From Nitrospirota bacterium (lineage in GTDB: Bacteria > Nitrospirota > UBA9217), in NCBI GenBank assembly GCA_963751455.1, contig CAVVUN010000001.1, positions 96,001 through 160,000 on the forward strand: a stretch of 64,000 nucleotides of DNA. Direction: 5' to 3'. How positions within the stretch are numbered: the first letter of the stretch is position 1; every line of letters starts with the position of its first letter. The notes beneath the pieces are model-generated. The model saw only the letters and a program-made list of their open reading frames with translations. It was not told where the DNA came from and made no database searches. Shown piece by piece: positions 4,699 to 39,995 of the stretch. The position numbers and the translations under genes were made by a program.

Positions 4699-4926
4699 AT
4701 TGGTATCGTAGAAAGATTAGACCTAAAAACGAAGAAACCAGCGGAGGGGTACCACATGGCAAGATTGAAATAAAGTTGCCTATTTTTTTCTCATTTGTTT
4801 TCTAAACTGGGTAGGAGTGGAACCGATAATTTTTTTAAAAATTCTCTCGAAGTGCGTTAGATCCGAAAAGCCCGTGCAGAAACCGACGTCCGTTATCGAG
4901 AGGGCCTGATCGGTCAACAATTTTTT

Positions 4927-6315: not shown

Positions 6316-6872
6316 AATTTTTTGCCTGTTCTATTCTCACGCGATTTAAATAGCTTTGATAGGTCAATCCCGTCGTTTCTTTGAACGTCCGGGAAAAATG
6401 AAATCTGGAGACAGACGCTATCTTTGCCACCTGGTCAAGGCTGATATTCGTGGAACAGTAGCTGTGAATATATTGAAGCGCTTTATGAATGTAACTGCTC
6501 TTGTCGTTCGTGTCGGCGTCCTGGACCTCTTCTCTCACGCTTGTTTCAGCTGGGTCCAGTGGGGCCGTTCTGTGCTTGACCGGCCCGATGCCCTTGCGAA
6601 ACAAGCATACATTTATCCGTTCGATAAAATCGTCATAAATAAAGGGTTTTTTAACGTAATATCGTGCCCCAAGTCTGAATGCTTTTGAAGATCACCGGAA
6701 TTAAAGGCATGATTTTTTTTAATTCGATCAGAACTTCGATGCCCGACATGTCAGGCAACCTATAATCAATGACCGCAAGATCAAGATCCGGGCTCTTTTT
6801 AAGGAATACATTAGGGTCACCCATATGACGCTAAAGCGAAGCGTTTGAGCCGCTTTCTTTCGGCTGTATGGT

Positions 6873-13159: not shown

Positions 13160-15274
13160 TCACTTCATGTCTATTCGTGTGGGTTCCGGCAATTTATTAC
13201 TAATGAGGCTGGGCAAGCCTGAACTATTATTGCCTCCGGAACCGATACTAATGGAAATTTTACCGACATTGTCTCCCGGCGCCCCAACAAGAGATGGGTC
13301 ATGACTATATTCACCTCCGATAGTTAGGTTGAATTCCTTCGTCAATGGAATAGTATAGCCGGTCGTTGCTTTAACATTTCCGCTCCCTTTGACTTCGCCA
13401 CTCATTGAAAAAGTGCCGTCACCGAGTTTAAAATCTGCTGTCATTTTTCCTCCTATTTTATTGTTATCCACAGAAGGCGCTATTTTTACGCTTCCCTGCA
13501 ACTCAGTACGAATTGTGTGTTGCGTTACTTTATTTATGTCGCGTATTGCGGGATTGACAGTGTTGTTAACTAACCTATCAACGACTGCAGGAGCAGATTG
13601 CGGGACGTTAATCTCCTTTATCTCTGATCCAATCGATAATTCTATATCATTTCCATCCGGGTCTACAAACTTAATTGGATTGCTCCCCGCATAAGAGTAC
13701 ATGTTCATGTTTATCGGATTAAACACCCCACCTATTCCCGGCAGATCTCTTTCCGGCTTCCAGTCTTTCTGCTCTGTTTGTCTAGTGTCATTAACGTTCG
13801 GCAAATATTTTTCTAATATTGGATCCGCACTAATCCACCTGCTTAGCACCGGATCAAAATATCGTGCCCCGTAATAGTACAACCCCGTCTCCGGATCAAG
13901 CTCCTTGCCCGTGAACCGGTACATCGGCATCTGGCCGGAGCCGCCTTCTTCGACCCATGTTTCCCCGTACGGAAAGTATTCAAGCTCCTGGTACACAGCG
14001 CCATAATCATCAGTAATGAAGCTGCTGCTTCCGAGATGGTCCGGATGGTAGAAATATGCAAATTTCTCGGTAGGTGGATTCGTAGTTGTCGTGTCGGTTG
14101 TTCCTGTACTGGTTGTTGTCGTGCCGCTTGTGACCAGCCTACGCCCAATGCCTCTGTGGCTTCCGCGTCCTCTGTTGTATGCCTGCAGGATCCCCTGGCT
14201 GTTTATGATCGCGACCGTGCCTGGTACGCCGGACGTGATGCTGCCGCCGTCCTTTTCGAGTTTGGTGCAGACCCGGGTCTCTCCGGCAAAGACGTGTTTG
14301 CTGCCGAGATCGCCGTTCTTGAGACTGTAGAACCGGTTGAGGTAGACCGTCTCATTCCCGCCTCCGCCTTTGACAACTCTTTCTCCACTGTCATCATACA
14401 GGAACGCAGTGCCGCTCCCGAAGTCTGATATGGATTTCACCCGGTTCTCTTCGTTCCATATAATTGTCCTGGCTGAGTTCGTGGTTTTGCTGGTCCAGCC
14501 GGTCATGTTGCCGTTGTCGTCGTAGCTGTACAGCTTGTCGCCCGCGTCCCTGACCGCGTGGGGCTTGTTCTGCGGATTGTAGAGATACGTCATGTTGTAG
14601 TTCGTCTCTCTGGGCTGCTGGGAGCCGTTCGTACCCAGGATCAGATGGGTCTGGATCTTGCCGGTGATGTTTCCGATTGTATCATAAGCTAAATTGTTCG
14701 TATAGTTTGTTTTCTTGCCCGGATCGGCCTGATGCAGACCATTGGCTGTCGTAAGCTGATACAGATCATCATATGTGTAATGATGCTCTGTTGGGCCGCC
14801 GATCTCGCCGCCTGCCGGTATTGGCGCGGTATTGGTTATATCAAGTATGTTGCCGACAAGGTCATAGGCATACACGATATCCTGGATGACCCGGCCTTTG
14901 GTCGGTTCTTTTGTCCAAAGATGGGTCAGCCGTCGGGTGAGCGGGTCGTAGGCGTAGGTGGTTTTGACGTTATTCCCGTACGTGAACTCGGTCCGCTGTC
15001 CGAATTCGTCGTATAGTAGTTTATCCACGTAGACGTACCGGTTCCCGCGTTTTACTCCTTCTGCTCTCTTGAGCAGCCCTCCCGTATCATAGAGGTAGGT
15101 GAGCACCTCTCCGTCTGGATAGGTGAGTTCAATCATCCGGCCGAAGGAGTCGAAGACATAACCGGTCTGGTACAGCGTCCGGGAAACTGGATTGCTGGAG
15201 GCGTTTACCTGCCTCAATTCTTTCGCGGTCTCACCCAGTCTGCCGTACCACCGCTCTTCCATGCCTGATTCGTC
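13160..15274 (-). pseudogene. Orphan RHS core with a distinct C-terminal domain
   Basis: Homology to the giant gene begins at DESGMEERWYGRLGET. HPDHLGSS, RFTGKELDPETGLYYYGARY and NPIKFVDPDG are followed by a unique 163-aa tail. The first about 58 aa of the track ORF are antisense to a mobile-element remnant. Confidence 0.85.
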
Positions 15275-15616
15275 GACCAGAGCAAGGGTATCAAGAACCT
15301 CGAAAGAATCTCGAAATCCGTGGAAACCGACGACCGTTCCTACAAGGGATTCAATCTCTTCAGCGATGATGATCTCAAATTGTTTAAAGTTCTCGCCCGT
15401 GGTGAGTTCAACATCAACGGCTTGCAGAACAAGTCTCTGCGAAAACAACTGCCATCAATAACGAGTAGCACAATGACGAGAATTCTGAAACGCCTTCACG
15501 TCCACGGGATTATTCGTAAAGTCGGTAAAACATATAAGTACTACGTCTCAAAGCTCGGCAAGGCTGTTATCACTGCGGGATTGACCGTTCGAAATATGTC
15601 AGTAATCCGCAATTAG
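15272..15616 (+). mobile_element. 3' remnant of a putative mobile-element protein (C-terminal winged helix, family often labelled MarR-like)
   Basis: GEFNINGLQNKSLR...RILKRLHVHGIIRKVGKTYKYYVS. Opposite strand to all island genes, no start, abuts the RHS orphan at a GTC overlap. Confidence 0.55.
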
Positions 15617-16322: not shown

Positions 16323-16407
16323 TGCAAATGCCTCCTCTGAAAAGAAAATTATCACGATAAGGAAAAGGCCACTTGAATTCGTAGCAACGGATGCCCCTTT
16401 AAATAGA

Positions 16408-17847: not shown

Positions 17848-18504
17848 CTACGGTTTAACATTGCTGAATTCTTCGACTAAGTCAAAGAAAGGAAACGATT
17901 GATCAGTCAGATAATAATTGCCATAAGTCATCACAGTATCGCGAATATATTTTAAAGGGACTTCTTGCTTGTTTGATTCAAAATAACTCTTCACCAATTC
18001 CCGAACTATCTTTCCGCCCGGCTCATAATATGTTCGCCTCTCTACGATATAGGGTCCAGGTGATAGTGGTTGCTGCTTATCGGTATTATACCCTTGCATT
18101 GTGTTCAGTCTTTCAAAAACAAAGGCTGTATTGCCATTATGATAAAAATAATATTCTACGGTGTTATTCCATCCTTCGCTAACCGCGAATATAACGATTT
18201 TTACAACTTGTTCGCCCAAAAGATATGCCTTCGCCTTGTAGTCACTCTCTTCAAATGCCTTTACATCTTCTGCAGATTTAACTCTGTACCATTTGTCTTT
18301 TTTATTTTCGCTCGGTCCCGGTCCTTGGTCTGGGGCGCCAGTATGCAACATGATTTCCCGGACTTTCGTTTTAGAAATTAAATCATTCGTATGCTTATAT
18401 ACCTCCTTAATTTTTGTAATCGGATCGTCCGCTGCAAACGTTAACGAATACAAAAAGAGTAATGCAAACATCAATAAAGCTTTATTAATTTCTCTCATCC
18501 CCAT
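17848..18504 (-). CDS. Periplasmic protein, candidate immunity protein for the M15 toxin domain
   Basis: Starts 55 bp after the toxin stop, with an AGGAGG RBS and a signal peptide ending TFA-AD. AT-rich like the toxin tip. The function is inferred from position. Confidence 0.65.
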   Translation of the reverse strand: MGMREINKALLMFALLFLYSLTFAADDPITKIKEVYKHTNDLISKTKVREIMLHTGAPDQGPGPSENKKDKWYRVKSAEDVKAFEESDYKAKAYLLGEQVVKIVIFAVSEGWNNTVEYYFYHNGNTAFVFERLNTMQGYNTDKQQPLSPGPYIVERRTYYEPGGKIVRELVKSYFESNKQEVPLKYIRDTVMTYGNYYLTDQSFPFFDLVEEFSNVKP

Positions 18505-21500
18505 GGGCCACTAATCCTCCTAAAATGCGTGACCTTTTTGCCACGTTTAATTATTATAATCAGAATCCAGAGCCTGATGTAGGAGCTGATTTTAATTCAC
18601 CCGGACTAGGTTGCTGTTTCGGAAGATCTGGCATCTCTAAATGACCGGGATCCCAACCATAGCCCGTATTTTTATTTATTGGTTTGAAATCGCCACCCCA
18701 TTTCAACCCTTCCTGCTTCCCAACATCACCCAACTCTCTAAAAAATTGTCGCTGCTCTGGGGTTTTGTCAATTTGGCCCCATCTCGTATCCATGATATCC
18801 ATTGCTTCCGATTTACCTGTGCCAGCACGATCAACGTGTTTGCTTGTATAGAGCGAAGTTGGTTTTGAATAGCCTTGCTCAATCTTTTGTTTTTGCTGCT
18901 CCACTGTCCTCACAGGATTTTCAACAGACTGGGGTTTATACCCTTTTGCCTCCATCCTTGCAAAAGTTTTTTCGGCAGGCTCTCTCATCCTATCAGCGAG
19001 AAGGGTTAAATATGGATGGCTCTTTTCTAACGCAGCTGTCGTATTGATTCCGACACTTGCACCTCTATGGCCGCCACTGCTTACTAATTCAGCCACGAAA
19101 TATGCCTTAACAAAAGGTATCTTCCATGCAAAGTTTCCGTCAGGGTCTTTGAATATTACCGGATTATTATGAGCATACGTGTATAATCCTAAATTGAACG
19201 GATTAAATATTCCACCCATACCTACTAGTTGATCCTTGTTCTCAATCCTGCTTGGTAGATACTTCCCTAAGATTGGATCCGCACTAATCCACCTGCTCAA
19301 TACCGGATCATAATACCGTGCCCCATAATAGTACAACCCCGTCTCCGGATCAAGCTCCTTACCCGTGAACCGGTAGTACGGCATCTGGCCGGAGCCGCCA
19401 TCTTCCACCCACTGCTCTCCGTACGGGAAGTATTCAAGGTCCTGATACACTGCCCCAAGATCATCCGTGATGAAGTTACTTGATCCAAGATGATCGCCAT
19501 GGTAGAAGAACTCAAACTTCTCGATAGGTGGATTGGTCGTGGTCGTCGTGGTTGTGGTACTAGTGCCACCGGATGTACCTGATAATCTCCTGTTTATCCC
19601 TACCTGCCTGCCATTTCCGCGTGTGATGGCATTCTTGATGCCTTGGCTGTTTATAAGGGCGATGCTGCCCGGCACTCCGCTCTGGATGCTGCCGCCGTCT
19701 TTTTCGAGCTTGGTCACTACTCTTGTCTCTCCGGCAAATACATGCTTGCTGGCAAGATCACTGTTCTTTATGGAGTAGAACCGGTTGATGTAAACGGTCT
19801 CGTTGCCGCCTCCGCCTTTGACCACACGCTCGCCCTGGTCGTCATACAGGAAACTCGTGCCGTTCCCGGAATCCGTGATGTTCTTGACTCTGTTTTCCTC
19901 GTTCCAGGTTATGATTCTGTTGGCGTTGGCGGTGGTCCACCCAGCCATGTTGCCATCCGAGTCATAGGTATAGTTCTTGACCGGTGTTCTGGTGGTGACA
20001 TCCGAGGTGTTGGTGACTGCATGGGGCTGGACGCCGTTGTAAGCGTAGTTCCAGGAATAGTTCGTCTCCTTGGGCAGGTTGCTTGAACTCGTGCTATAGA
20101 CCAGGTGCTGCTGAATCTTCTGCGTTATGTTGCCGATTATATCATAGGCGAAGCTGTCTGCATACGTCGTCTTTGAATTGGCGGATGACCAGTGGGTTCC
20201 GCTGGCTGATATAAGCTGATACAAATCATCGTAAGCGAAAATCTGGACCGTCGGGCCCCCGATGTTCCCGCCTGTCGGGATGAGCGCCTGATTATCCGTG
20301 CCGAGTTGCAGGATGTTTCCTACAAGATCGTATTGATAGCTGCTGTCCTGAATAGAGCGACCGCTCGGGAGTATCGTGGTCAGCCTGATCAATCTTCGGG
20401 TGAGGGGGTCATAGGTATAATTCGTTTTGACTCCGTTCCCATACTTGATCATCTCCCTCTGGCCGAATTCGTCGTAAAGGAGATTATTGATGTAGACATA
20501 CTGGTTCCCGCGCTTGGTCCCTATTGCGCTCTTCAGAAGACCGCCGTTATCGTAGATGTAGGTAAGCATTTCTCCGTCTGGATAAGTAAGCTGCTTCATC
20601 CTGCCGAAGGAGTCGAAGACGTAATCCGTCTCAAACTGGGTCTTGGCAACAGTATTGTTTGAAGCATTTACCTGCCGCAGTTCCTTGGTGGTCTCGCCCA
20701 GTCTCCCGTACCAGCGCTGCTCGGTCCCTGATTCGTCCTTAACCTGTTTTATTCTGCCGGCAAGGTTTCCATGTTGGTCTCCGCCCTCATTCGATCCGCC
20801 GTATTCGTAGGTTACCGCTGTGGTGGTCGGGTATGAAATGGTTTTCAGCCTGTTATATTCATACGTGTAGCTGATGTTCGGCTGGCCTTTGTATTTCGGA
20901 TCGTTTTTCAGGTTTGCTGTCTGCTTGGTTGTGACATTGCCATTTGCGTCATACGTATAAGTCGTCAGGCCCGTATCCGGGTTGTCGATCGTAAGACGGT
21001 TGCCCAGGAGATCGTAAGTTATATTCGTCTGGTTGTTTTTTGCGTCAGTAACGTTGATGATTTCGCCCATAATATTATAAGCATAGATCGTTTTTATGTC
21101 GACATTAGTTCCTTCTAACTTTCCATGTTCTTTCACGGCATGGATCCGATCATGAACATCCTTGTACGATTCTTTGGAACGGTACATAGGATCAACGACC
21201 TTGACCAGGAACAACATGCCTGCTCCATCAGGTGAGGTGTCGAAACCGTAGGACATGGTGGTTGTCGCTTTATCGGGAGTAACGATGCTGTTCGTGCGAT
21301 CAAGCGTATCATAGGTGAACAGCGTCGGATACTGAGTTGTCAGATCTTCATACGCGTACCCGCTTCGGAATGCGGGCTGGCCCTGTTGTATTGTCCTGCC
21401 GAGCGAGTCGAAAACAACAGTCCCTGAGACAATAACGCCGGTACTGACTGTTAAACCGCCGTCCCGGGTAACGTCGGCATCCTTCCTGATCTGAATAATG

Positions 21501-24500
21501 CGTTTGAGACCGTCGGCGAACGTCGTTGTGTTGATTGTGGCTGACGTACAACCCAGGAAGGAGTCGGCCCTGTTCGTCGTGACGGCTCGCGCCGGAATAT
21601 TGTTCGAGGCCGGTACGTCATACGTGAAAGACACGGTAGGCTGGCAGACAGGACTCCCTCCGCTGTTCACGGCATTAGGGCCATAGACTGCGATAAGTCT
21701 GCCGAAATCATCGTAATTGTTGACCCGGAAGTTTCCGTTGATGTCCTTCGTGGTCAAAGGTTGACCGAAGCGTGGATCATAAAGGGCCGAAGAGCTGTAA
21801 CCGAAGGAATCGGATATACCGGTAACATAAGTCTCGACATCGTCATCATAGACGTATTTAAGCTTATAACCATCTGAATATTTATTGTACTGGGGGTCCC
21901 CCGCAGGTAAAGTGATGGTCCAAAGGTTGCCATCCGGGTAATAGGTCATATTCCACTGAGCATTCTTGCCCCCCTGTACAAGCATGGTAAAATTAAGAAG
22001 ATTTCCAGTGCCGTTTTCGTAATTCCCCGAGCGGCTCCGGTAAATCGTACCCTTGGTATCCTTCACAAGGATACTGCTCGGCTTATCCATGATGTAATGC
22101 GCCGTGTCCTTCTGATTGTAGCCGATCGAGACATAAATGTCGTCGACGGTTCCGTTGTCCGCACGATCCACGTATTCAAGAAGGTTTCCGTACTCATCAT
22201 ATGAGTTATATTCCTGGGACGTGTTCTTGACAATACTCTGGGTCGAGACGTCGTAATAATTGGTTGTCGTCATCGTTAATTCAGGGAACTGCGATAAGGG
22301 ATCTGACCCGGGTACAAGCTCGTAATCGTTCTCGGTTGCCACATAAGCCGGGTTCACAGTGCTCTGAATATTTTTGATGTCCTGGATGCTCCCTGAGCGT
22401 GTGATAGAATTTGCGAGGAGACCTTTAAGATAATAATTCTGGTTATGATACGTGTTGACAATGGTGACGGTGTCGTTTCCAGAGCCCCGTGTTTCAGCTA
22501 CAGTATGGAAACCGTAAAATTCACGCTCGTCGCGGCTGTAGAACCCGGAATCGTAGGCATATGAAGTTTCATAAACGTTCTTGAGCCTCCCGGAAGAGTC
22601 CTTCATGCCGTCGTTCCTCGTCACTTTCGACAGCACCCAGTAGCTCTTCGGCATGTCGATGCTCTGGTTCTGATTGGAGAAGTCCACCTTGTTGCCCTTG
22701 CGTTTGTAGTTTATGGTAAAACTCCCACCGAGGGGGCCATTCGCTGATTTTAGAAGATTTGCCTTGGAAGAGAGGTTACGCTTAACCAGGATAGTATGTT
22801 TGTCGAAATCCGCGTCGTGAGTGATTTTGAAAATATGGTCCGGCAAACCGTCACCGTCGATGTCGGTGAAATCTATATGAGAAGTAGTGGAATGGGTCGG
22901 TATCTTTTGGGGATTATAATCCGTTACAAACGGATTATTATGTATGTCCGGATTAGAGATATTGTCTTCCCTGATAATCCATGAAAGGGGATTTCCCGTC
23001 AACGGTGATATAAGTTGATACAATTCGGAAGAGTCAGGGAAACCGAGCACAGATGACTCGAGCAAATTGCCGCCGGGCAGGCTTCCCAAACCGAATTTGC
23101 GTTTATATGTCGAAGTACTTGCGAGACTGCCGGAGTCCTTGCTCGACCTCACAGCCGGCGCAAAAAGACCAGATCCGTTCACAATCCCGGCACTAATAGT
23201 GTCCATTAGGACGAAATTAGTATTAAAGAACCCATAGATATAGCTTACTGTGGCGCTATTGGATAGCGTATCGTTATAAAGAAACGCAGACAGCCTTTGA
23301 TAAAGCTCTTGATCTGACACTGATAAAAGAAGGCTTGTAAATAGGTCTGGTGCAACGCTCAGCATTTGCGCAGTCACAGCTTCAGGGTCCAGAGACGAAG
23401 AGAACTGCCAGAAAGGAATTGCCCATTTCTCTTCGTTCCCGAATCGACCTCCTTGGTTGATCCTAACCACCATAAAGCTGTCATTGGAGTTCTTTGAAAC
23501 CATATCAGGCAGACCGTCATCATTAACGTCGACCATATCAAAATCGTGATTAGTCACGCCCAGATTTATCCCCCAAGAACCTCCTGAATAGTTCAGCCAA
23601 TCGTGAGTGCCGAAGGTACCCGCAATCGTTTTGTTACTGCTCTTTCTCATCGGAATGTTAGCCGGCGTTCTCCATTCTTCCTGATAGCCGAACCGGCTCC
23701 CGAGGTTCAGACGAACAAGAAGCTTACCAGAGCCGTCAGGCTCCGGAGGCCCCTGTGTTACCAGATCCGGCAAGCCATCGCCGTTGATATCGATCAGATC
23801 GGACTGCGTCGAAGCGGTCCCTTCAGTATAACCCAGGTTTAATGAGAAGAGATTCCAGACGGAGAAAAGGCTGGAAAAGTCTCCTGAGGAATACGCGCCA
23901 CTCCCTGAGGAAAATAAATACTGACCAGCGGAGGAAATATTACTGACAACAGGTCCAACGCCGAGATTATAGCTGGTACTCTCGTTTGTGACGGTCCTGA
24001 AATTACCAGGATTAAGCCTGCTTGGTGTGGTAAAACCGCTTTTCCCGTCATTCAGTGTCACACCGGTTGTTGTAACCTGGTCGGGATAATGGTCTCCGTT
24101 CATATCAATCAAGTCGAGCGATGTACCGCTGTTCCCGCTCCCTTGCTGCCATGAGACGCCGGCGCCTGATCTCGTGGAACTATTATCTACGCCGGAACTA
24201 AGCCGGATTGTGGCGCTGGAGGCCTTCGGATTTATACGAGTAGAGCTCAACACCGAGCTGCCGATAAAACATCGATCCGCGCTTCCCAGCCAAACAGGTG
24301 CAGCTTGTGAAAAAGAATTACCGCCCGGCAAGGGCACCATGCGAGTGAAATCTTGAGACCCGGCATACGATCCGTCCGCCTGCTTCGTCTCGATAACCAT
24401 AAGGCTTTCAGCCCACATCTTGCCGCTATTCCATTGGCCGTAGTACCATTCGCGGAACCCCCCGCCATAAGCTTCTATTTCCTGCTGCGGATCCAGGTAA

Positions 24501-24918
24501 TAAAATTGAACGTCCGGATTGAAGACAAACTGATTTCCCGAAGGAGTACATGTCCACTGTTCCTGACCATCCTGGGTGCACTGCACGTTAGCGCAGGTTG
24601 AGGAGTCATTTGGGCAATATTGCGTGTAGGTGATCTTCGGCGACCAGGAAACGGAGCTTCCTAGGTTTTTGTCTGACCGCACTTCGAAAAAGAGCTGATC
24701 GCCGGCTGCGACGGGAATCGTGAAGTCGTGGGAATTCACTCCACCGGCACCCAGTTGCTGTTTCCAATAGGATTTGTTGATGCCAAGAACCCGCGCCGTA
24801 AAGGAAGCGGTTGATTGTGTTCCATTAACTGTGCCGGTAATCTCTATAGTCCCGGAGTACGGAGCGACCCAAGTTAAAGCCGTTGTTCTTGGGATCGTAG
24901 TCCATAAGGGATAATTGA

Positions 24919-26436
24919 CCTTAACGTTGCATAAAAAATCGCTATGCGGCCCGTTGCAATCGGTCGAGATAATGCAACAACCCCTTTTTGACTCGTGGAT
25001 TGGCGTTCATTGTCAGAGTTAGCTTGCCGCCGGGCTGTGTCAGGCGGCCGGCACGCTGTATAAGTGTTCTTCGCAGGGTATTGGGCTCCGTGAACTCCCA
25101 AAGAGCGGCCCGTTTTTCGGTGGTGCCCCGGTCGGGTTCATGCGCGACCATGTGAAGTTCCTTCAGGAGATTGTGCGAGATGATCGCCGACATCATGTAT
25201 AGCTGATTTCCGTGCAATCTTCTCACAGCCACGTAATCCATATTGCACTGGGACTTTAGCTCTCCAAGGATGTTTTCCTGAGAACCGCGGCCCTGATGGA
25301 AGTTCAGGACTTTCTTCACCGTCGTTGTTTTGTTTGTAACGATCACCTTGAAGTCAAACCCGTATTCGTGCGGCGTGAACATATCAAGCTGCACCGGCTC
25401 TTTTGACTGCTTTTTGGCTTTTTGACGAATAAAAAGAAAGCGGAACCGGCTGTCCCAGCTTTTCGGCTTCCAGGGTGTGTCGAAATAGGAAACAACGGAA
25501 TCGTAACGCCTCCAGCGTTTTTTGGCTTCGATCATGTGCTTGAGTTCGGAGAACCGCTCAAAGGGGACCGAGATGGTGAACTCAATTCCGTCGCGCTCCA
25601 GCGCGCCGACGATTTCATCGCTGAAGAAAGCGCTGTCCATGCGCACTTCGATGACGATATCCGAACAGGTTGCACGCACCTGTTCGATGCACGCAAGGAT
25701 GAACGCCCGGGCGCCGTTGGAATCATGTACGTTACCCGAACGGGGCAGGACGTCAAGGACCATGCCCAACTGAGCGATCATGCAGAAAAGCGGATAATAG
25801 CTTCTCTGCCCTTTTTTCTTTTTGTTGAAGCCTACGGCGGCACCCTCAGCCCATCGGGAGGTCGAGAGCACAGAGCCGTCGAAATCAAGCGTCACGCGAC
25901 GAAGCTTCAAACCCTGTATGCGGGAGAGCGACATTTCCCGGCAGAACCGACGAAGATTCAAAATGTCCTTTGCGTCGACCGTCATCAATGCCCGGCTGAT
26001 CGTGGAAACGTCCGGCATTTTTCGGAGGCCCAGAAGACGAAGCGCCATAAGGTCGTCCTGATAGTATTCGATGTCGCGGAGTTTCCGATAACCCAGCATC
26101 AGATGCACGATCAGCACGAGCGTAATGACGTGATTGCCGAAGATGGCGCTCGACGGTAGATGATCAAAGCAGCTTTTCAAGCGGGCTTTCAGATTCAGCT
26201 TCGTGAAGAATGCCTGAATGATAGCAAGGCCCGCGTAGGAAGTGAGCTGTTGATCCTCGAACTTCAGTTCCGGTATTTTGTGAACGCGGCTTAGAACCTG
26301 TGCTTTACTGGACTTCACTTTCAGTGGCCTCCTGCTTGAGTGAAATAATGATATCGCAGGAGCACTATATCCAATAATGAAGCCTGTTTCCAGAGGTTTC
26401 TGCATATTTTCAAGAAATGTTTATGCAACTACAAGG
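24919..26436 (-). mobile_element. IS1380-family insertion sequence
   Basis: IRs CCTTAACGTTGCATAAA / CCTTGTAGTTGCATAAA, CC..GG ends, 4-bp TSD TTGA (24915-24918, 26437-26440). Confidence 0.92.
24942..26318 (-). CDS. IS1380-family transposase
   Basis: LTSYAGL, TLDFDGS, VRMDSAFF and RGSQENILGELK motifs. Probable GTG start at 26318 after AGGAGG. Confidence 0.92.
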   Translation of the reverse strand: MKSSKAQVLSRVHKIPELKFEDQQLTSYAGLAIIQAFFTKLNLKARLKSCFDHLPSSAIFGNHVITLVLIVHLMLGYRKLRDIEYYQDDLMALRLLGLRKMPDVSTISRALMTVDAKDILNLRRFCREMSLSRIQGLKLRRVTLDFDGSVLSTSRWAEGAAVGFNKKKKGQRSYYPLFCMIAQLGMVLDVLPRSGNVHDSNGARAFILACIEQVRATCSDIVIEVRMDSAFFSDEIVGALERDGIEFTISVPFERFSELKHMIEAKKRWRRYDSVVSYFDTPWKPKSWDSRFRFLFIRQKAKKQSKEPVQLDMFTPHEYGFDFKVIVTNKTTTVKKVLNFHQGRGSQENILGELKSQCNMDYVAVRRLHGNQLYMMSAIISHNLLKELHMVAHEPDRGTTEKRAALWEFTEPNTLRRTLIQRAGRLTQPGGKLTLTMNANPRVKKGLLHYLDRLQRAA

Positions 26437-29400
26437 TTGATTTGCGGCTTGAACCGGTAGATAAGATTGCCATTGCCGTCCGTGGCATTTGGATCTACGG
26501 ACATCGTACTGCAGCCGAATTGCGATAAATCCGTTGTTATACCGCAACCGGTAATGCTTGAAAAAGCCGTTTCAACCGAGAAAGTTACGCTGTTCGGATC
26601 AACATTCATCTTGGATGAAATATCAAAGAGAAACTGTTCTCCTTCCTTCACGTCATCGACTGTTTCGTTCAGGGTAATCGTCTGCTCTGAATCTGCCGGC
26701 AAGGTATATTCTTTAAAGATGGTAGTGTCATCCACAGCGGAATTCGGACTCGCTCGCAGGATTCGGACGGTTACATCATCGGTTGTCGGATGTTTTTTAA
26801 TTGTCCCGTTCAAAATCATAGTTCCTGCAAATGGAGATGCCCAGACAACCTTTTGTGAATCGATGAGAGAATAATCGGAAGAGCCTTGATAAGTGTACAA
26901 TGGCCGGCCAATCGAGTCTTTAAGGTTCTGAAGTGATTGTTGCGTTTGGTTCCCGGAATTTGTGTAGGTGATAACAGGGTCGAAAATTATCTGGTCGTTC
27001 TCGCCGTTATCTATGGAATTAAGCCGGAAATAGATACGCTCGCCTTGCTGAACATTCGTCAAATCGATGCTGTTTGAACCTGTGTTATTCTCGACTTCGC
27101 CGAGGAGATGAACTGTATAATCGTCTCCGGTAATAGTGAGTTTGCCGATCTCGGTATTTTCTCGGTAAACATACAGGATTACTCCATCGCCGTCATTCTC
27201 TTGTTTCGTTTTTTGGATGGTGCCGGCTATACTGATGTCACCGCTGAAAGGTGCGACCCATTTGCGCACGGGATCGGCTAGCGGGGAATATGGCGTTGTA
27301 CTGCTCGCTAATGAAGAAAGATCTGTCGCGTTTGACCAGGTGCCTTGTGCGAATTTTTTTTGAGACGGGATGAGATTCAGGGAAGCTGCTCCATTCGAAA
27401 TGGAGTCTACAAGTCCGTCCCCGTTTATGTCGCTTAATGTAGCATTGGAACTGCTGATTGTCGTGGCCTTATTATTCGACATGGATGCTGCCATAGTATA
27501 AGTCGCGTTTCCTTCGCTGTCCGTCGTCTTCTTCTCCGACTCGATTATTCCAAGCCCCACGTTTGTAATTGGTCCAAAACCGGTAGTTGTTCCGGACGGC
27601 GCTTCCTGATCAAACTGGTTGAAATAAACTCCGTCCGGATTAACCATATCGGGCAGTCCATCCCCGTTGAGGTCGATAAACTTTCTGGTAGTAGTGACGT
27701 TTGACTCGCTGTGGCTGGTTAAACTGCCGGTTGAAGGCGCTTTTAATGGGAGCGGTCCTATTCCTTGGTATGTTTGTTTGCTTGTTGCATAATCTTCTAT
27801 CTTGGTTATCGCATCGGACTCGGGGGTATACCATGCTTCTTGCTCGCCGAAGCCCTTAATCGAACCGTCATCCAGATGATCCATTCGATAATAATCGAAA
27901 CTGTGGCTGTAAAATACCTGATCGTTTGCTCCTTTTGCCGTAATAGTGCTCAGCAAGGTTTTGAAAAAATCGCCTATGATGTAGTCGAATTTGTAACTCC
28001 TGATCGTCTTATCTTTAAACTTAACAACGATGCTGTCCAATATATAGCGGATAGCCGTTTTGAATCCAGCAATGCCGCTGATAATAAGATCCTGGCGGTT
28101 CCCGGCTTTACGAATGAATTGAACACTATATTGCGCCGGAGCACCAGTACTGTTATTCTGTGTATACGTAATCGTATCAGGGTAAAGATAAACCCAGTTC
28201 TCTTCGCTAAGTGAGGTCTTTGGAGGACTTGAGGGGTCGAATAGACTGTTTAAGTAAATTTCCTGAGAATCTTTATAATAAGAAAATGTCGTCACGTTTC
28301 CATTGGTATCTACAACCTTATCAAGGAACCATTGAAATATGTCAGACGGATTCTGATAGTCAGAGAGTCGCGATTGGTCACTCGATCCGTAGTAGTACTT
28401 GACACCTGACTTATCGGTAACTTCCCACCGATAATTCGTTGGATCGCTCCCTTTACGAATGACCCTCAGAAAATCGCCCTCTACTCGTTTGTAAAATTGT
28501 AAATCCGTTGTTCGGTTGATCTTGGGCGTGTTCCACCTGAATACAGGCGCCAACTCCTGTCCAGCAAGGAGATAGCTTTCTGTCTCGTATGTATCATTAT
28601 ATTGAGGTACGCCCCAACGAGTGTCTACCTGAATGCTTGGGATCGGGATGTCCCAGCCAAGGCCCATCCACCCGTTAGCATTGTTGCTGGTATAGGTGAC
28701 CCTTAAGTCAGGCGTATACGCGCCTCGACCTTTTGGGATTTGGATCGGGTAGCTGAGGTTGGCAGTTCCCTTGTTGTTCGCCCTCGGAGGTTCTATGAGA
28801 TCAATATTCGTGCCCGGGTCCGCTGCCTTGATGTCCTTGATCGAGGTCGGATTAAATGTTAATGCTTCGGGATGCTCCGGGACAACAAGGGTGGAATTTA
28901 TAATATCGGTGAAGTGGTCCGATGAAGACGTGACCAGAGAAGCACTGGCATCCACCTTTTCACGCGTGAGCTGCTGCCAGCGCAGAAGAGATTCATCGTA
29001 GTAGTACATATTAATGTCGTTGTCTGTCTGGCCCGCCGCAAACAGTGCCTTTGAATAGCCGAACGAAATCTTGATAGGCTTTTTGAACTTCATGTGGGGT
29101 AGAAAGCGGTAGCCGGCGGCAGGAGACGTGACGTTTATCATGCCGGGATTGAGGCGATTGAGGTCGGCCTCTGTCAGCGGGATAATCGTAATCTCGGTCT
29201 TCTGGTCCACGGCGTCTGCGGGAATATCAAGTGTCACTCCACCATATTGAATTTTCTTTGCCTGGCCAGGTGATACTTCTTCGCTGAACTTTTCGCGCTT
29301 ACTCATTGCTGCATGGCTTGAGTTCGTCGTACTGCTCGGACCGTTGTTCAGAAGGTTCTTATTAAGAGTTATGGTCTGAGTAAACACAGTGCTATCGGGA

Positions 29401-31177
29401 TACGTCCCCGTTATGACAGATTGCCAAGGGTCGTTGTCGTCCTGGTCTGCGTAAGACGTCTCATCCTTAGTGACCGGGACACTGAAAGAACCATCAATGT
29501 TCGACACTGTCTTTCCGGAGATATCGACCTGAACCGTCTCAGAAGAATTGGGTACGGAATCGAGGAACCCTTGGATATAGGCTGTTCTCCCGAAATACTC
29601 TCCGTTTAACGGGTAATTTACAACAAGACCTCGCCCGACTCGCGAGCCGACCGGGCTTGCGATAAGTTCGATTTCATTTATGCCGCCGACGGTCGCACCA
29701 CGTCGTTTTTTGTCCGGGGTGACCTGTATATTTAGTCTAAGCGTGTCAGTTGCGACTACCGAGGGTATTTTGATATCGTTCCACCCGTCCTTGAGAGAGG
29801 ACAGGTCGACCGAACCGCCCGAAGCAAAGTTTTTCCATTGACCGCTTTCGACGTACTGAAGGGTTATTGTGCCGGAAGGAACGCCGGACACACACCACAG
29901 ATTGATCCTCACTGTGTCCGGCTGGACTGTTCGTTCTGTTTTTAGATCAAGATTATGCGTTGATTTAAGCTCAAAATAGGTAGCCGGATCTCCGTCGATC
30001 ACCGTCTGGGCGGAATGGACGGCATTTTCTGACGTCCCGGTCACCGAGGAAAGGACGTTCCAGCCGCTGTCGAGCTCTGCGACGAGTTTAAGATCTCGGA
30101 TCGAATATGAAGAGTGATCTCTATCCGTGACCTGGTTGATGAATTCTATGGTATTTATGCCGTTTACAAGCCATGAAGGACTAATCTCTTCTGCATGCGC
30201 TTTCCAAGCAGGGTTATCCGAAGTTGTCGGGACGAATCCGCCCATCCAGGACAGACCGTTGATCCGTCTTTCCGGAGAGATCGGGTAGTCTGCATTATAG
30301 GAAGCGTAGTAAAGGAAGGCACGCTTTATGAGCCTGGGGTCTGAATTCAATGTGAAGCTTACCGTATAGGAATTGCCGTCAGCAGGCACATCAATTGTTT
30401 GGGGCATGGCGCCAAGCTGCATCATATGGTAAGGCATCGGCGAAGAGGATAATATCTTTTGAAAATCTGACGCTGTCTTGACGTTCTTCAGAGTCAGCGT
30501 CGGGTCTCCTGGATCTGTTCCCCATATCTCAATTTCCTTGATCCCACCGGCGTTTCCACCAGCAGCGGTGAATTCCAGCATGAGTTTGTCGGTGTTGAGA
30601 GCGGAAGTCGCGGTAAGCGTATTCCATGCAGTCGTTTGGGATTTGGGAGTGATATTGTCGAGGCCCGGCACTGCAACCCAAGAGCCTGAACTGCCGTCAT
30701 AGACAGCAAGATTGTAGGAAGCGCTGCCGTAGATCTTGATGAGGCCGATATTTCTGGCTCCTGGGAGGGTAACCATGACCCGTGCCGGTGCCATCGGGGC
30801 ATAGGCTGTGTTCGTGTCAAGGTCGAAGAGCGTCCAGGCCGAACTATCTTCAACCCACGCGCCTGATGATTCTACCCTCACAATGGAGGGATTCAGCTTG
30901 ACGATATTCTGGCCGCCTGATCCGCCGAAGACGGCGTAGCTTCCTAAGATTGCAGTGGCAGCCGAGGCTATCAATAGGATTCTCACCATCCCGCATTTAT
31001 TGAGACTGCTCATGGCGCATACCTCCCGAAAAATGAAAAGATCACTTCTCACAGCCAATGCTCTAAAAGAACGCCATTGTCCCCTTCATGATCCCTTCTT
31101 TATATAAAGGCGCGCACGGGGAGGGAGAATACAATGGGATTATTCGAAGGATAACACGACTTGCATTCCATTCCTGA

Positions 31178-32665
31178 CTACGGTGTTAGGAACGGCAACG
31201 GATAGCCATGATAATTCTCCGACATGTCGGCTCTAGTCGGAGCTGTTTGCGGAGGCGTAGGCGACGTCATATCAATCTGGCATGCCGTTACATAGACGTC
31301 GCACTGCAATCCGCTCGCGACGCTCCCGTTCAAAACCCGTGCGTTCGTAGTATTTACCCAGTTGCCCCAGACCTCGTCGTACTTGTACTGCTTGGTCGAA
31401 CTATTCCAAACATCGGCCCACAGACTGATATAATATGATTTAGCATTAATCACTGAAAGCCACGTTATACTGATATCTTTCACGTTCGCATTCGCTGCGT
31501 TCGAGACAAGGGAGGCGCTGATGTCCGATCGGGAGTCTGTTACAGAAAGAGGAATGAGATTCGGATTCGGATTTGTATTCGCGAAGCTGAAGGCAGCCGA
31601 CTCCGAAGCCCCTCCATATGTAGCGGTTACGGTGTAGGTTCCTCCTCTGACCGGTTCGATATTGTAGTACCAGTATGCATTGTGGCCCTCGTTTGCCGGA
31701 TAAATGTAATTCATGACAAGACCGTTAGGATCTGTAACCATAATGTTCCAGTCGCCTGAGGGGACTGTTGGCGAAGGATTCGTGGATAAGTCCTGAATCG
31801 AGGTCCAAATGGCCAAAGCGTAGATAGGGGTATTATTCGAATCGCGCATGCCATAATCGAGTATGCCGCCCGCAGTCTGAAGACTGTAATTAGCAGAGAT
31901 CTGCCCCCCGCCCACGGGGAAGGTGAAAGAATACTCGGAGATATTCTCCTGAGGGGCAAGGCCGGGCGACGATAGATGGTTGGCGTAAAGAGCGACAAGA
32001 TCCGTTGCGTAGGCATCGACCTCAATGAAGTAACTCCCGGTCGTCAGCGTTCCAAAACTTACGACCGCAGACGTGTCCGTCGTATAGCCTGTTATACAGT
32101 TTGTGTCAGGATCGCAGACGTTATAGGCGTAAGATCCAGCGCCGTCGATGCTAGGCCAAGTGAGCTTAATATCGCTCCCCGAGGAACTTGCGTTCGGAGC
32201 AGGCCGGGAAAGTACGGAAGATGTGATGGTGAAGTCATCATAAATGGTTGTAGAGCCATCGGTTGCTGTTGCACGATAAGTGCCGGGAACAGGATCGAAA
32301 CTAGCCCATTCCCAGGTCATAAAACTTCCGAGGCGGGGATCGGAATAATCGACAACAAGCGGAGAGGAAATCCCAGGACCTGTAATAGTAATCGTCCAAG
32401 GCAGCGTTGGGCCCCAACCACTGCCGTCCCTTAGCGTTACAAGCAGGGACAGACCCTTCGCTCCTGATCCGTCATTCAACGTCCCGCCCGAAGCAACAAG
32501 TGTATAGCCTCCGTCAGCGTTGGTCGGGGTACCGGGATTGTTTTTCTTCCCCCCCTTGCAGCCAAAAAGAGTGAACAGTAGGATGACGGATAAAAAAGTG
32601 ACAAGCGAAAAATGGGGAAAGATGCGGACAAGAGGCAATGACTTTGATAAGGAATTCTTAATCAT
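31178..32665 (-). CDS. Large beta-rich lipoprotein (paralog of 3032-4510), cut off from its RBS by an IS
   Basis: Native start MIKNSL at 32665; lipobox LFGC. The native GGAGG RBS now lies beyond the IS at about 34067-34071. Confidence 0.82.
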   Translation of the reverse strand: MIKNSLSKSLPLVRIFPHFSLVTFLSVILLFTLFGCKGGKKNNPGTPTNADGGYTLVASGGTLNDGSGAKGLSLLVTLRDGSGWGPTLPWTITITGPGISSPLVVDYSDPRLGSFMTWEWASFDPVPGTYRATATDGSTTIYDDFTITSSVLSRPAPNASSSGSDIKLTWPSIDGAGSYAYNVCDPDTNCITGYTTDTSAVVSFGTLTTGSYFIEVDAYATDLVALYANHLSSPGLAPQENISEYSFTFPVGGGQISANYSLQTAGGILDYGMRDSNNTPIYALAIWTSIQDLSTNPSPTVPSGDWNIMVTDPNGLVMNYIYPANEGHNAYWYYNIEPVRGGTYTVTATYGGASESAAFSFANTNPNPNLIPLSVTDSRSDISASLVSNAANANVKDISITWLSVINAKSYYISLWADVWNSSTKQYKYDEVWGNWVNTTNARVLNGSVASGLQCDVYVTACQIDMTSPTPPQTAPTRADMSENYHGYPLPFLTP

Positions 32666-32667
32666 TT

Positions 32668-34056
32668 GGTAGTGTAGAAAAGGAGAGACTTTGGACATGA
32701 AGTAACAACAAATTGCCCTCCATTTTATGGATAATAGTTTTGGACGAAACTAACCATAAAACAGGAGGGCAATATGGGTGTTACCCCACAAAGGAAAGGT
32801 ATCACCATCAGTTTTGATTGTCAATTTGAAGTGCATTTGAAGGACAGCTCTCTTTCATCAATACTCGCCGCCTTTGCCGAGCTTTTGCCGCAGATTTTGA
32901 CGGACTTCATTCAGAAAGTGCTTGTAGGCTTTGGCGAGCATGTGATGGCTCTTAAGAAAAAGCCTTTTGCCTGCGGGTGCGGCAATGATCGGGAATTCAC
33001 ATGGAAGACGCGGCACGGGAAAAAGACTAAGATTCATGCCTTTTACCAATGGGTCTGGTTACAGCAGCTCCAGGTTGTTTGCAAACGCTGTGGGAGTAAG
33101 CTCTACATCACCCGAAAGCTGCTCGGAATGAAGCCGAAAAAGCGAATAGCGGCAGAAATTTATCGAAAGCTTGGGCTTCTGGGTTCCTTGACAACCTTTC
33201 GTGTGGCGGAGAAGATCGGCAAGATGTTCGGCTGGGCCGTGGACAAGATGACGGTCTGGAGCGCTGTCCAAAAGACGGGGTCGGAAATAGAGTTCAAGGT
33301 TGATGAAAAGGAGCTTCCCCAGGGCGAGGCTGACGGGACCGGGATCGGCATCAAGGGAATCAAGAAGCGCGGGAAGGAATTGAAGGCGTTCATACAGTAC
33401 AAGAAGGGTGGCGGCGTGCGGGTGGCGGGCCTTGATATCGGGAATTATAACGGGTCCTGGGACAACCTTTTCAAGAAGAGTCTCAAGGCTCTGGGGAGCT
33501 TCACCCGTCCGTTTTCCTTAATCACCGACGGCGACACCTCCATCCTGGATGCTCTTAAGGGGAAGGTGAAGATAATTGTTCAGCGCTGCTTGTGGCATAT
33601 TCCCTATCAAGCGAAGTATGTGTTGTGGCAGGACAAAGTGAAGCGTAAGAGCGAGGACTGGTTGTATGTGATCGTGGAGCTGATGGAAATCTGCGCGATA
33701 CGGCCGTTTGTAGACGACAAGCAGACGATAGCCGCGATGATCGCTTCGAAGAAGGCCCGGCTGGATGAACTGATAAAGCGGTGCGCTGAGAGAGAATATA
33801 CTCACACAGCCGCTTATCTTGAAAATGCCCGCCCGGATATGTTTACGGCGATCAAGAAGAGATTAGACGGTAAGACCACGAGCAAGGTGGAGCGACTCAT
33901 GCGCACGGTCAATATGCGGGTAAACGTGAGCAAGTGGACCGAGGCCGGAGCGCTGAATGTCATGAAAGTCCGGCTGGCTTATTACTATAACGGATTTGAT
34001 GCATAATGCGCGTAAAATGGGGGGCTTTTGTCAGGTCTCCACTTGACAACGCTACC
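32668..34056 (+). mobile_element. ISH6-like insertion sequence, copy 2
   Basis: 1389 bp, same ends as copy 1, 8-bp TSD AATCATTT (32660-32667, 34057-34064). Confidence 0.88.
32774..34006 (+). CDS. ISH6/IS256-type DDE transposase
   Basis: Protein identical to 5033..6265. Confidence 0.88.
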   Translation: MGVTPQRKGITISFDCQFEVHLKDSSLSSILAAFAELLPQILTDFIQKVLVGFGEHVMALKKKPFACGCGNDREFTWKTRHGKKTKIHAFYQWVWLQQLQVVCKRCGSKLYITRKLLGMKPKKRIAAEIYRKLGLLGSLTTFRVAEKIGKMFGWAVDKMTVWSAVQKTGSEIEFKVDEKELPQGEADGTGIGIKGIKKRGKELKAFIQYKKGGGVRVAGLDIGNYNGSWDNLFKKSLKALGSFTRPFSLITDGDTSILDALKGKVKIIVQRCLWHIPYQAKYVLWQDKVKRKSEDWLYVIVELMEICAIRPFVDDKQTIAAMIASKKARLDELIKRCAEREYTHTAAYLENARPDMFTAIKKRLDGKTTSKVERLMRTVNMRVNVSKWTEAGALNVMKVRLAYYYNGFDA

Positions 34057-34113
34057 AATCATTTTGCCTCCAAAACAGATACAAATTGACTGTCTCATAG
34101 ACTTCTATCAATT

Positions 34114-34196
34114 AAAAAAAAAGGGGGGGGGATGTGTGATGTATGTATGTATGTATGTATGTATGTATGTATGTATGTATGTATGTATGTATGTAT
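34114..34196. repeat. A9G9 homopolymer pair plus (GTAT)14 microsatellite
   Basis: A9 at 34114-34122, G9 at 34123-34131, perfect (GTAT)x14 at 34141-34196. Confidence 0.97.
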
Positions 34197-34239
34197 AAAG
34201 TATTACAAATAAAATTATTTTGACATAAAATATAAATTT

Positions 34240-34294
34240 TGTCTCGGCTTTTGTTGCTTTTTTTCTTCGGCTTTTGTTGCTGTTTATATTTTAA
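34240..34294 (-). promoter_or_regulatory. Conserved tandem direct repeat, candidate AraC-family activator site (copy 2)
   Basis: Perfect TCGGCTTTTGTTGCT at 34244 and 34267 (23-bp period), homologous to 4645-4698. Confidence 0.62.
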
Positions 34295-34385
34295 TCAAAT
34301 TGGTTCCTATGGAAGTGACGTGCAGAATAAACCAGAAAAACAGGGGTCATAAATACAGGCGGGAAATCGAGATTCAGTTTGATAT

Positions 34386-35186
34386 TTATTTATTTCTGAT
34401 TTTATTTCGGAACTGAGTAGGCGTAGATCCGAGAACTTTCTTGAAAATTCTTTCGAAGTGGGTCAAATCCGAAAAGCCCGTACAGAAACCGACGTCCGTT
34501 ATCGAGAGGGCCTGATCGGTCAACAGTTTTTTTGCCTGTTCTATTCTCACCCGATTTAAATAGCTTTGATAGGTCAATCCCGTCGTTTCTTTGAACGTCC
34601 GGGAAAAATGAAATCTGGAGACAGACGCTATCTTTGCCACCTGATCAAGGCTGATATTCGTGGAACAGTTGCTGTGAATATATTGAAGCGCTTTATGAAT
34701 GTAACTGCTCTTGTCGTTCGTGTCGGCGTCCTGGACCTCTTCTCTCACGCTTGTTTCAGCTGGGTCCAGTGGGGCCGTTCTGTGCTTGACCGGCCCGATG
34801 CCCTTACGAAACAAGCATATATTTATCCGTTCTATAAAATCGTCATAAATGAAGGGTTTTTTAACGTAATCTCGTGCTCCAAGTCTGAATGCTTTCACGG
34901 CAACATCTTCATTGCCATACCCGGTTATGAAGATCACCGGAATTAAAGGCATGAGCTTCTTTAATTCTTTTAGAACATCGATGCCTGACATGTCCGGCAG
35001 CTTATAATCAATGACCGCAAGATTAAGATCAGGGTTCTTTTTAAGATAACGGATCGCCGTTTTACCGTCAGGCTTGATTACAACTATGAAGCTCTTGGGA
35101 AGAAAATAACGATGAAGCTTTATCATTTCCAAGTCGTCTTCAACAACAAGAATCTTTTTTTTGACGGCCATATAATCTGCGCTCAA
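34386..35186 (-). CDS. Response regulator: receiver domain + AraC-type HTH
   Basis: ILVVEDD, VIDYKLPDMSG, ITGYG and KKP receiver motifs; SRFHFSRTFK...GFSDLTHFERIFKK AraC domain. The start could be ATG 35171. Confidence 0.93.
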   Translation of the reverse strand: MSADYMAVKKKILVVEDDLEMIKLHRYFLPKSFIVVIKPDGKTAIRYLKKNPDLNLAVIDYKLPDMSGIDVLKELKKLMPLIPVIFITGYGNEDVAVKAFRLGARDYVKKPFIYDDFIERINICLFRKGIGPVKHRTAPLDPAETSVREEVQDADTNDKSSYIHKALQYIHSNCSTNISLDQVAKIASVSRFHFSRTFKETTGLTYQSYLNRVRIEQAKKLLTDQALSITDVGFCTGFSDLTHFERIFKKVLGSTPTQFRNKIRNK

Positions 35187-36349: not shown

Positions 36350-36396
36350 AATGGTTTTATCCTTTCACCAAGCTGTCACCGAACCCAGTTTGCTCT

Positions 36397-37368: not shown

Positions 37369-37400
37369 CGTAATTCCTCCTCAATACCGAATTATAATAA

Positions 37401-39959: not shown

Positions 39960-39995
39960 GTTCTTTTCTCCTTCATGACTGTGCCTTACAGAGTC

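What the first reader, a model, noticed from the sequence alone, without database searches (positions are those of the whole stretch)
17848..35186. Candidate undescribed toxin system: Sec-exported TcB/TcC-like cocoon with an antibacterial payload, a dedicated lipoprotein and an AraC response regulator
Seen: regulator, lipoprotein, a gene of about 3,640 aa (after IS removal) and a small periplasmic protein, all on one strand. The giant protein has an N-terminal signal peptide, beta-sandwich domains, ZU5, SpvB, FG-GAP repeats, YD/RHS repeats and a DPDG-delimited tip. Known: SpvB + mid-domains + RHS is the TcB-TcC shell of ABC toxin complexes, normally delivered by TcA to eukaryotes; antibacterial RHS proteins usually use PAAR/VgrG or WapA-type export. 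No TcA, PAAR/VgrG or TpsB is visible in the window, yet the payload attacks peptidoglycan. The same regulator-lipoprotein-giant gene order recurs at 1-6.8 kb. Inference: the three genes form a unit in which the lipoprotein anchors, displays or exports the cocoon.
Basis: partly seen in the sequence, partly recalled or inferred. Interest (0 to 1): 0.9.

Follow-up and report, generated by a model that had tools for sequence, protein, structure and literature searches.

The report
Boxed antibacterial toxin with partner lipoprotein
This is a giant gene, broken here by a jumping gene, of an already described class of secreted toxins that likely box an enzyme for attacking rival bacteria; what appears new is an unnamed surface lipoprotein that sits in front of it in nearly all relatives and likely holds it on the cell.

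Summary
The giant gene is real: signal-like N-terminus, discoidin-type head, ZU5-like domain, SpvB, FG-GAP, RHS and a 191-aa tip weakly matching M15 cell-wall peptidases. An IS1380 splits it. The genome has no TcA, T6SS or PAAR, but has a T2SS.

The architecture is not undescribed. Zhang et al. 2012 defined a signal peptide + SpvB + propeller + ZU5 + RHS class of polymorphic toxins, with wall-cutting tips. Relatives here carry swapped tips (HNH with Imm33; a lipase-like tip).

The lipoprotein link holds. The giant follows it in 19 of 19 loci with enough DNA, and the two co-diverge. But one complete giant (G838) has no lipoprotein, and the predicted four-domain Ig/FN3 fold is not a channel. It is therefore an accessory partner, not the exporter; binding is untested.

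The regulator is not part of the unit: it is upstream in 1 of 24 relatives. Others have LuxR genes, GEMM-I riboswitches or unrelated genes.

Verdict: new variant of a known class, probably inactive in this genome. Interest 0.45.

The parts
34386..35186 (-). REC-AraC response regulator; local addition, not a conserved part
   Evidence: PF00072, PF12833; upstream of the lipoprotein in 1 of 24 relatives
32668..34056 (+). ISH6-like insertion sequence (transposase 32774-34006) sitting at the lipoprotein start codon; 8 copies in the genome
   Evidence: NF041731 E=2e-56, under cut-off
31178..32665 (-). Unnamed 495-aa lipoprotein: lipobox Cys36, flexible linker, four predicted Ig/FN3-like beta-sandwiches
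   Evidence: no Pfam or NCBIfam family; Cys kept in >=90% of 52 aligned sequences; AF2 pLDDT 88.8; only generic Ig/FN3 matches, best Z 8.4
26438..31013 (-). Giant toxin gene, 5' piece: signal-like N-terminus (about 31013-30942), discoidin/CBM32-type head (30941-29559), ZU5-like domain with invariant HFT at 28916, SpvB (about 28775-28149), FG-GAP
24918..26437 (-). IS1380-family element interrupting the giant gene (transposase 24942-26405); 10 copies in the genome
18560..24917 (-). Giant toxin gene, 3' piece: FG-GAP, TcdB_midN, YD/RHS shell, RHS core ending in PxxxxDxxG (DPDG)
   Evidence: closest solved relatives TcdB2-TccC3 E=3e-28 and YenC2
18560..19135 (-). 191-aa variable tip, likely an M15-type (L-Ala-D-Glu-like) peptidoglycan peptidase
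   Evidence: PF13539 E=0.009, under cut-off; 6akv E=0.03 and 2vo9 E=0.22; 3-row profile E=1.5e-5 (includes an M15-annotated row)
17848..18504 (-). 218-aa protein with a signal-like N-terminus; likely periplasmic immunity protein
   Evidence: position just behind the tip; four homologs at 49-79%, no family; binding not tested
13160..15448 (-). Orphan RHS cassette with a different tip, 66% identical to the giant's C-terminal shell
3032..4510 (-). Second lipoprotein paralog (39% identical)
4781..6803 (-). Broken near-copy of the regulator (86-98% nt), interrupted by the same ISH6-like element
1..1484 (-). Frameshifted head of a second giant gene (continues to G000:C1:85759, different tip); IS4-type element at about 1534-2866 upstream

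Best explanation
This locus encodes a fused TcB/TcC-like polymorphic toxin, here split by an IS, that is likely exported through Sec and likely aimed at rival bacteria, and the lipoprotein encoded in front of it likely tethers or displays it at the cell surface. Steps. (1) Lipoprotein and giant lie in one gene run (shown); co-transcription is inferred. Control varies by lineage: REC-AraC, LuxR or GEMM-I riboswitch upstream (positions shown, function inferred). (2) The giant is predicted to enter the periplasm by its signal peptide. Crossing the outer membrane is unexplained; the genome's T2SS is the candidate (guess). (3) The RHS core would self-cleave after DPDG and enclose the tip (inferred from TcC/RHS). 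(4) The ZU5-like HF/T site would self-cleave, leaving the discoidin head held to the shell until release (inferred from PIDD HF/S). (5) The lipoprotein would bind the head; the discoidin domains may bind surface sugars (inferred). (6) The released tip would cut peptidoglycan stems, and the downstream exported protein would neutralise it (inferred). In this genome both copies are probably silent (breaks shown, silence inferred). Odds: class assignment about 0.9, antibacterial about 0.85, lipoprotein as physical tether about 0.45.
For: Domain order matches the published TcdB/TcaC class. Tips differ among relatives and are followed by small genes: HNH + Imm33 in G402; a lipase-like GHSLGG tip (motif recalled) + ankyrin lipoprotein in G401. 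An orphan RHS cassette lies downstream. No TcA in G000, with G111 as a ringing positive. No VipB in 0 of 64 family genomes or in the 4 other carriers tested. No Hcp, VgrG or PAAR in G000, with ringing controls. The giant head follows the lipoprotein within 3.4 kb in 19 of 19 decidable loci. In the family, the head is in 8 of 64 genomes and all 8 have the lipoprotein; 7 other SpvB-positive genomes have neither. In the class of G401 both occur in the same 2 of 251 genomes. Lipoprotein and head trees share the same 6/7 split at 100/100; Spearman 0.78, 0 of 5000 permutations (13 loci).
Against: G838 has a complete 3,715-aa giant with the same head in mid-contig, no lipoprotein in the roughly 13 kb upstream, and none found in the genome; G699 also has the head without a detected lipoprotein. 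Two giants in lipoprotein-bearing genomes (G111:C136, G185:C311) have no lipoprotein directly upstream. Co-divergence is expected from operon co-inheritance alone. Up to two unrelated variable lipoproteins or exported proteins often sit between the two genes, so the operon may simply collect surface proteins. The M15 and ZU5 calls are under Pfam cut-offs. G401 and G402 were found through the lipoprotein, so they are not independent for that direction.
Confidence: 0.55

Rival explanations
1. The lipoprotein is a periplasmic chaperone or T2SS-targeting pilot that keeps the 400-kDa protein export-ready, not a surface tether.
For: Strict linkage and co-divergence; first gene of the run; G000 has a full gspC-K-like cluster at C15:917-927 kb (gene names read from motifs).
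Against: G838 does without it. A tandem Ig/FN3 stalk on a flexible linker looks like a surface arm; that reading is from general knowledge.
Confidence: 0.2
2. The lipoprotein is a passenger: an independent adhesin co-regulated and co-inherited with the toxin, with no physical link.
For: Variable accessory lipoproteins crowd the same run. G838 lacks it. About 30 distant full-length homologs have unknown context.
Against: It is the one constant upstream neighbour in 19 of 19 decidable loci in two phyla, while the other inserts vary. It tracks the discoidin-ZU5 subtype and not SpvB-RHS genes in general.
Confidence: 0.2
3. The giant is the B-C half of a Tc toxin delivered by a TcA, or is T6SS cargo.
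For: The shell is homologous to TcdB2-TccC3, E=3e-28. One carrier, G111, has a TcA.
Against: No TcA or T6SS in G000 (100% complete) or in the other carriers tested. G111's TcA has its own TcB on the same contig. Signal-like N-termini and immunity genes are present, whereas Tc loci lack immunity genes (PMC7861908).
Confidence: 0.03
4. The lipoprotein is itself the outer-membrane export channel.
For: Gene linkage; no TpsB found (control did not ring).
Against: The predicted fold is four soluble beta-sandwiches with no barrel; it is absent from G838.
Confidence: 0.04

Closest known systems
TcdB/TcaC-class polymorphic toxins (Zhang et al. 2012, PMC3482391)
   Same: Signal peptide, SpvB, integrin-like propeller, N-terminal ZU5, RHS, variable tips including wall peptidases and HNH, immunity genes, discoidin add-ons (passages).
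   Different: No partner lipoprotein in the passages read (one 'lipoprotein' hit in the held main text). Nitrospirae are not in the listed range of that class. An M15 tip was not seen (0 hits for 'D-alanyl' or 'carboxypeptidase'). The class is computational, and Additional File 1 was not read.
Tc (ABC) toxin TcB-TcC cocoon (TcdB2-TccC3, YenB-YenC2)
   Same: Homologous shell and PxxxxDxxG boundary (motif in PMC7861908).
   Different: No TcA; natural fusion with a signal-like N-terminus, discoidin head and ZU5; immunity genes; bacterial targets.
Bacterial teneurin-like proteins (PMC13018210)
   Same: Sec-signalled YD shell enclosing a variable antibacterial tip, downstream immunity gene, predicted surface display.
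   Different: TLPs use FN-plug + NHL and carry their own lipid anchor or wall-binding domain in Gram-negatives and Gram-positives respectively. Here the plug is SpvB/FG-GAP and the putative anchor is a separate gene.
M15 L-Ala-D-Glu endolysins (LysB4 6akv; 2vo9)
   Same: Weak sequence match over the tip; R, SxH, AxD and DxxH-like residues present (their catalytic roles are recalled).
   Different: Under the Pfam cut-off; 6-residue longer H-to-D spacing (recalled comparison); sits as an RHS tip.

Membership tests
TcdB/TcaC-class polymorphic toxin | N-terminal signal peptide | tested here: inconclusive
   Basic n-region and 12-aa hydropathy of 2.4-3.5 in 13 of 14 relatives; the 14th (L027) was mis-windowed by the script. 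Similar in the window. No SignalP; a signal anchor is not excluded.
TcdB/TcaC-class polymorphic toxin | SpvB domain followed by integrin-like (FG-GAP) propeller | tested here: met
   PF03534 E=2e-30; FG-GAP_3 E=1e-8
TcdB/TcaC-class polymorphic toxin | RHS repeats and core | tested here: met
   PF05593; TIGR03696 over cut-off
TcdB/TcaC-class polymorphic toxin | Variable C-terminal toxin with adjacent immunity gene, orphan cassettes | tested here: met
   Different tips in G000 (two), G103, G239, G401, G402, G838; HNH + Imm33 in G402; orphan cassettes
TcdB/TcaC-class polymorphic toxin | N-terminal ZU5 autopeptidase (optional) | tested here: inconclusive
   13 of 14 members hit PF00791 weakly, not the window's own; HFT invariant; no PDB hit; cleavage untested
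Tc (ABC) toxin complex | Cognate TcA translocon | tested here: not met
   0 in G000, G401, G402, G838, G699; the search rings in G111
Tc (ABC) toxin complex | TcB-TcC-like shell | tested here: met
T6SS RHS effector | PAAR/VgrG and a T6SS in the genome | tested here: not met
   (controls rang)
Teneurin-like protein | FN-plug + NHL + YD superfold in one chain | tested here: not met
   No NHL hit in either piece; SpvB/FG-GAP instead
M15 peptidase (tip) | Family score and zinc-binding residues | tested here: inconclusive
   17 bits against a cut-off of 25; candidate residues present; activity not testable
   1 of 24 relatives (L040, 27% identical)

The most novel reading that the evidence does not exclude
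The lipoprotein is the founding member of a dedicated surface receptor family for TcA-free TcB-TcC cocoons. It would grip the discoidin-ZU5 head on the outer membrane, and ZU5 self-cleavage would act as the release latch on contact with a rival. That would be a contact-dependent killing system in Nitrospirota and Geobacteraceae needing no TcA, T6SS or TpsB, switched on in Geobacteraceae by cGAMP-type riboswitches, and it would supply the first concrete handle on how the TcdB/TcaC class reaches and leaves the surface.
Probability: 0.3. Interest if true: 0.75.

Novelty: new variant of a known kind. Interest (0 to 1): 0.45.

Why it matters
In the passages I read, the signal-peptide SpvB-RHS toxins are described from sequence alone, with no tested route to the surface or into a target. 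A constant, co-diverging partner gene and an invariant self-cleavage motif give two direct tests. An intact copy exists in G401, whose record is titled as a Geotalea sp. scaffold. The window's own copies are broken, so this locus is a pointer to the system and not the place to study it.

Tried and rejected
Complex prediction of the lipoprotein with the giant head: never ran because the queue was full; this says nothing on binding. Sequencing runs: none was listed, so expression, and whether the IS insertions and frameshifts are fixed, remain unchecked. Context of the distant 420-450-aa lipoprotein homologs: names uninformative, no plasmid match, viral scan not possible with alignment A4, and only G401 in 376 genomes of its phylum. 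ESM Atlas: lipoprotein best 0.88, a lead only; immunity candidate 0.93 to unnamed clusters. PDB sequence search for ZU5: nothing. No family-level fold match for the lipoprotein. Searches for ABC_toxin_N, TpsB and T9SS PorP found nothing but their controls did not ring. PF03934 did not pass cut-off in G000 although a gspK-like gene is visible. My first tblastn missed the REC-AraC gene in L040; I redid it with phmmer. No Rfam hit in the window. Earlier scan findings: none. Rejected: the CsgG-like, FecR and LPP20 genes upstream as parts of the system, since FecR precedes the lipoprotein in only 2 of 24 relatives.
Full report
SETTING. The window is G000:C1:96001-160000 of a 5.7-Mb, 15-contig genome rated 100% complete and 5.4% contaminated. 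Close relatives of the lipoprotein carry Nitrospirota names, so I take the organism to be a Nitrospirota member (inference).

OBSERVATION. The four genes are on the minus strand as described. The giant gene is in two pieces around an IS1380 at about 24918-26437, with 10 near-identical copies. Aligned separately, the pieces abut exactly in L025 and L027, and their lengths sum to about 3,643 codons. SpvB, FG-GAP, TcdB_midN, RHS and the RHS core are firm. The closest solved relatives of the shell are TcdB2-TccC3 and YenC2. The 461-aa head folds at pLDDT 78 into beta-sandwiches whose top hits are CBM32/discoidin-domain proteins. ZU5 is weak by score: 13 of 14 members hit PF00791 at E<=1, and the window's own sequence is the miss. 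An HFT motif is invariant in 14 of 14 and also present in G838 and G699. PIDD cleaves after its ZU5 domains at HF/S, threonine can serve as the nucleophile, and fragments often stay associated (PMC3210808, passages). The tip after DPDG is 191 aa and matches M15 peptidases only under cut-off. A three-row profile reaches E=1.5e-5, but it includes an M15-annotated row.

Its 8-bp flanking repeat contains the lipoprotein's start codon. The second copy at 1-6.8 kb carries two IS elements and several frameshifts. Both systems are therefore probably inactive here; assembly error cannot be excluded for the frameshifts.

DELIVERY MACHINES. G000 has no VipB, Hcp, VgrG or PAAR, each with a ringing control. 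It has no TcA; the same search rings in G111, where TcA has its own TcB on the same contig. VipB is in 0 of 64 family genomes and 0 of 4 other carriers. Five secretins are present, one in a gspC-K-like cluster (names read from sequence motifs).

THE LIPOPROTEIN. It has no family hit. There are 54 hits in the protein collection, counting itself, and about 30 more distant full-length ones. Its model (pLDDT 88.8) is four Ig/FN3-like sandwiches on a flexible linker, with only generic fold matches.

After collapsing duplicates, I had 32 lipoprotein loci. In 19 the giant head follows within 3.4 kb: G000 twice, G103 twice, G161 twice, G123, G139, G185, G239, G401, G402, L022, L025, L027, L028, L032, L036 and L038 (the last two near-identical). 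The other 13 end within 3.4 kb and were dropped as undecidable. None with enough DNA lacks the giant.

In reverse, 19 of 23 giant heads have the lipoprotein upstream. Two do not but have one elsewhere in the genome (G111:C136, G185:C311). G699 has only about 460 bp upstream and none found in the genome. G838 has a complete giant in mid-contig with none nearby or in the genome. The G838 and G699 heads are more divergent (E about 1e-79, against 1e-180 or better for full-length heads of the others).

By genome: the head is in 8 of 64 family genomes, all with the lipoprotein. The lipoprotein is in 10 of 64; the two extra are fragmented, and weak FN3-level hits at E about 1e-4 were not counted. Seven other SpvB-positive genomes have neither. 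In the class of G401, both occur in the same 2 of 251 genomes; 30 other genomes had only weak partial hits to the lipoprotein profile. For 13 loci with both parts intact (the rest left out as frameshifted or partial), both trees split the same 6 and 7 rows at 100/100; Spearman 0.78, 0 of 5000 permutations. Operon co-inheritance alone would give this, so it shows linkage and not contact.

THE REGULATOR. A REC-AraC gene lies directly upstream in 1 of 24 relatives' loci examined (L040, 27% identical; the 24 include one duplicate). Two have a LuxR gene. Two have FecR directly upstream, as in the window but without the regulator. Five of 20 loci scanned have c-di-GMP-I riboswitches. The window's two regulator copies are 86-98% identical in DNA while the lipoproteins are 39% identical as proteins, so the regulator cassette was attached recently. 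Paralogs elsewhere in G000 precede other exported-protein clusters.

POLYMORPHISM. Tips differ among relatives: HNH followed by Imm33 (G402), a GHSLGG lipase-like tip followed by an ankyrin lipoprotein (G401; the motif label is recalled), and unassigned others. An HNH tip implies that some payloads must reach the cytoplasm. An orphan cassette sits at 13160-15448. Tc loci are reported to lack immunity genes (PMC7861908, passages), which fits a bacterial target here.

MECHANISM. Most likely: Sec export; self-cleavage at DPDG to box the tip; self-cleavage at HF/T as a latch between head and shell; the lipoprotein holding the head at the surface; release on contact; and protection by the downstream exported protein. 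Gene order, domains, motifs, linkage and the missing TcA/T6SS are shown. Export, both cleavages, binding, killing and immunity are inferred. Outer-membrane crossing is unexplained, with the T2SS as a guess.

WHAT IS KNOWN. PMC3482391 (passages; the first 300,000 of 357,715 characters are held; supplements not read) defines the TcdB/TcaC class as a signal peptide followed by SpvB and an integrin-like propeller. It places ZU5 at the N-terminus, proposes that ZU5 releases the toxin at the surface, and lists LD-peptidase, NlpC/P60 and HNH tips. PMC7861908 notes natural B-C fusions. The bioRxiv paper 10.1101/2021.10.19.465003 uses SpvB as a trafficking marker (passages; supplements closed). PMC13018210 (first of 11 parts plus passages) shows the same logic for teneurin-like proteins. 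I found no paper on this lipoprotein or on these loci in searches. The library lacks most subscription papers, and unread supplements of PMC3482391 could list such neighbours.

VERDICT. The toxin is a member of a known class. The partner lipoprotein is a real and apparently unreported addition, common but not obligatory. The regulator is incidental, and the locus itself is broken. New variant of a known kind; interest 0.45.

Noticed in passing
L054:1340-1417, L055:1338-1413, L034:1260-1339, L036:3861-3940 and 4074-4152, L040:1199-1290 and 2210-2288: c-di-GMP-I (GEMM-I) riboswitches upstream of the lipoprotein in 5 of 20 loci scanned. L034, L036, L054 and L055 have A where L040:2210 has G before the GG(C/T)AAA motif. 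If that is nucleotide 20 (my mapping, recalled), they are cGAMP-type (A20G switches the ligand, PMC6456294 passages).
   Followed up: partly
G000:C2:371567-380514; C15:117918-126716; C15:1093731-1102711 (L051-L053): Three other signal-bearing SpvB-RHS genes of about 2,050-2,140 aa without the discoidin-ZU5 head, each next to a different lipoprotein of about 800 aa; the two scanned have no family over cut-off. Possibly a second toxin-lipoprotein pairing.
   Followed up: partly
G111:C15:8274-26500: A true Tc locus (TcA and TcB domains) in one family member, 1 of 64 genomes.
   Followed up: no
window 34139-34196: A run of about 14 four-base repeats between the regulator and the ISH6-like element, in the likely promoter region; possible slipped-strand switch.
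   Followed up: no
window 6873-7508 and 15741-16451: Two paralogous exported proteins (62% identical) of no Pfam family in the cassette region.
   Followed up: no
window 35591-43604: Cluster of FecR, CsgG-like + FlgT_C, GNA1162-like, LPP20 and TPR genes; a similar run lies directly before the lipoprotein in L037.
   Followed up: partly
G000:C15:321419-327442; C15:1230182-1236205; C11:34469-40198: Three further signal-bearing RHS genes of about 1,900-2,000 aa without SpvB.
   Followed up: no
L015, L017, L020, L022, L027, L046 between lipoprotein and giant: Variable accessory lipoproteins (MAM-like, Kelch, fn3, Big_5) or DUF4412 proteins inserted in the gene run.
   Followed up: partly
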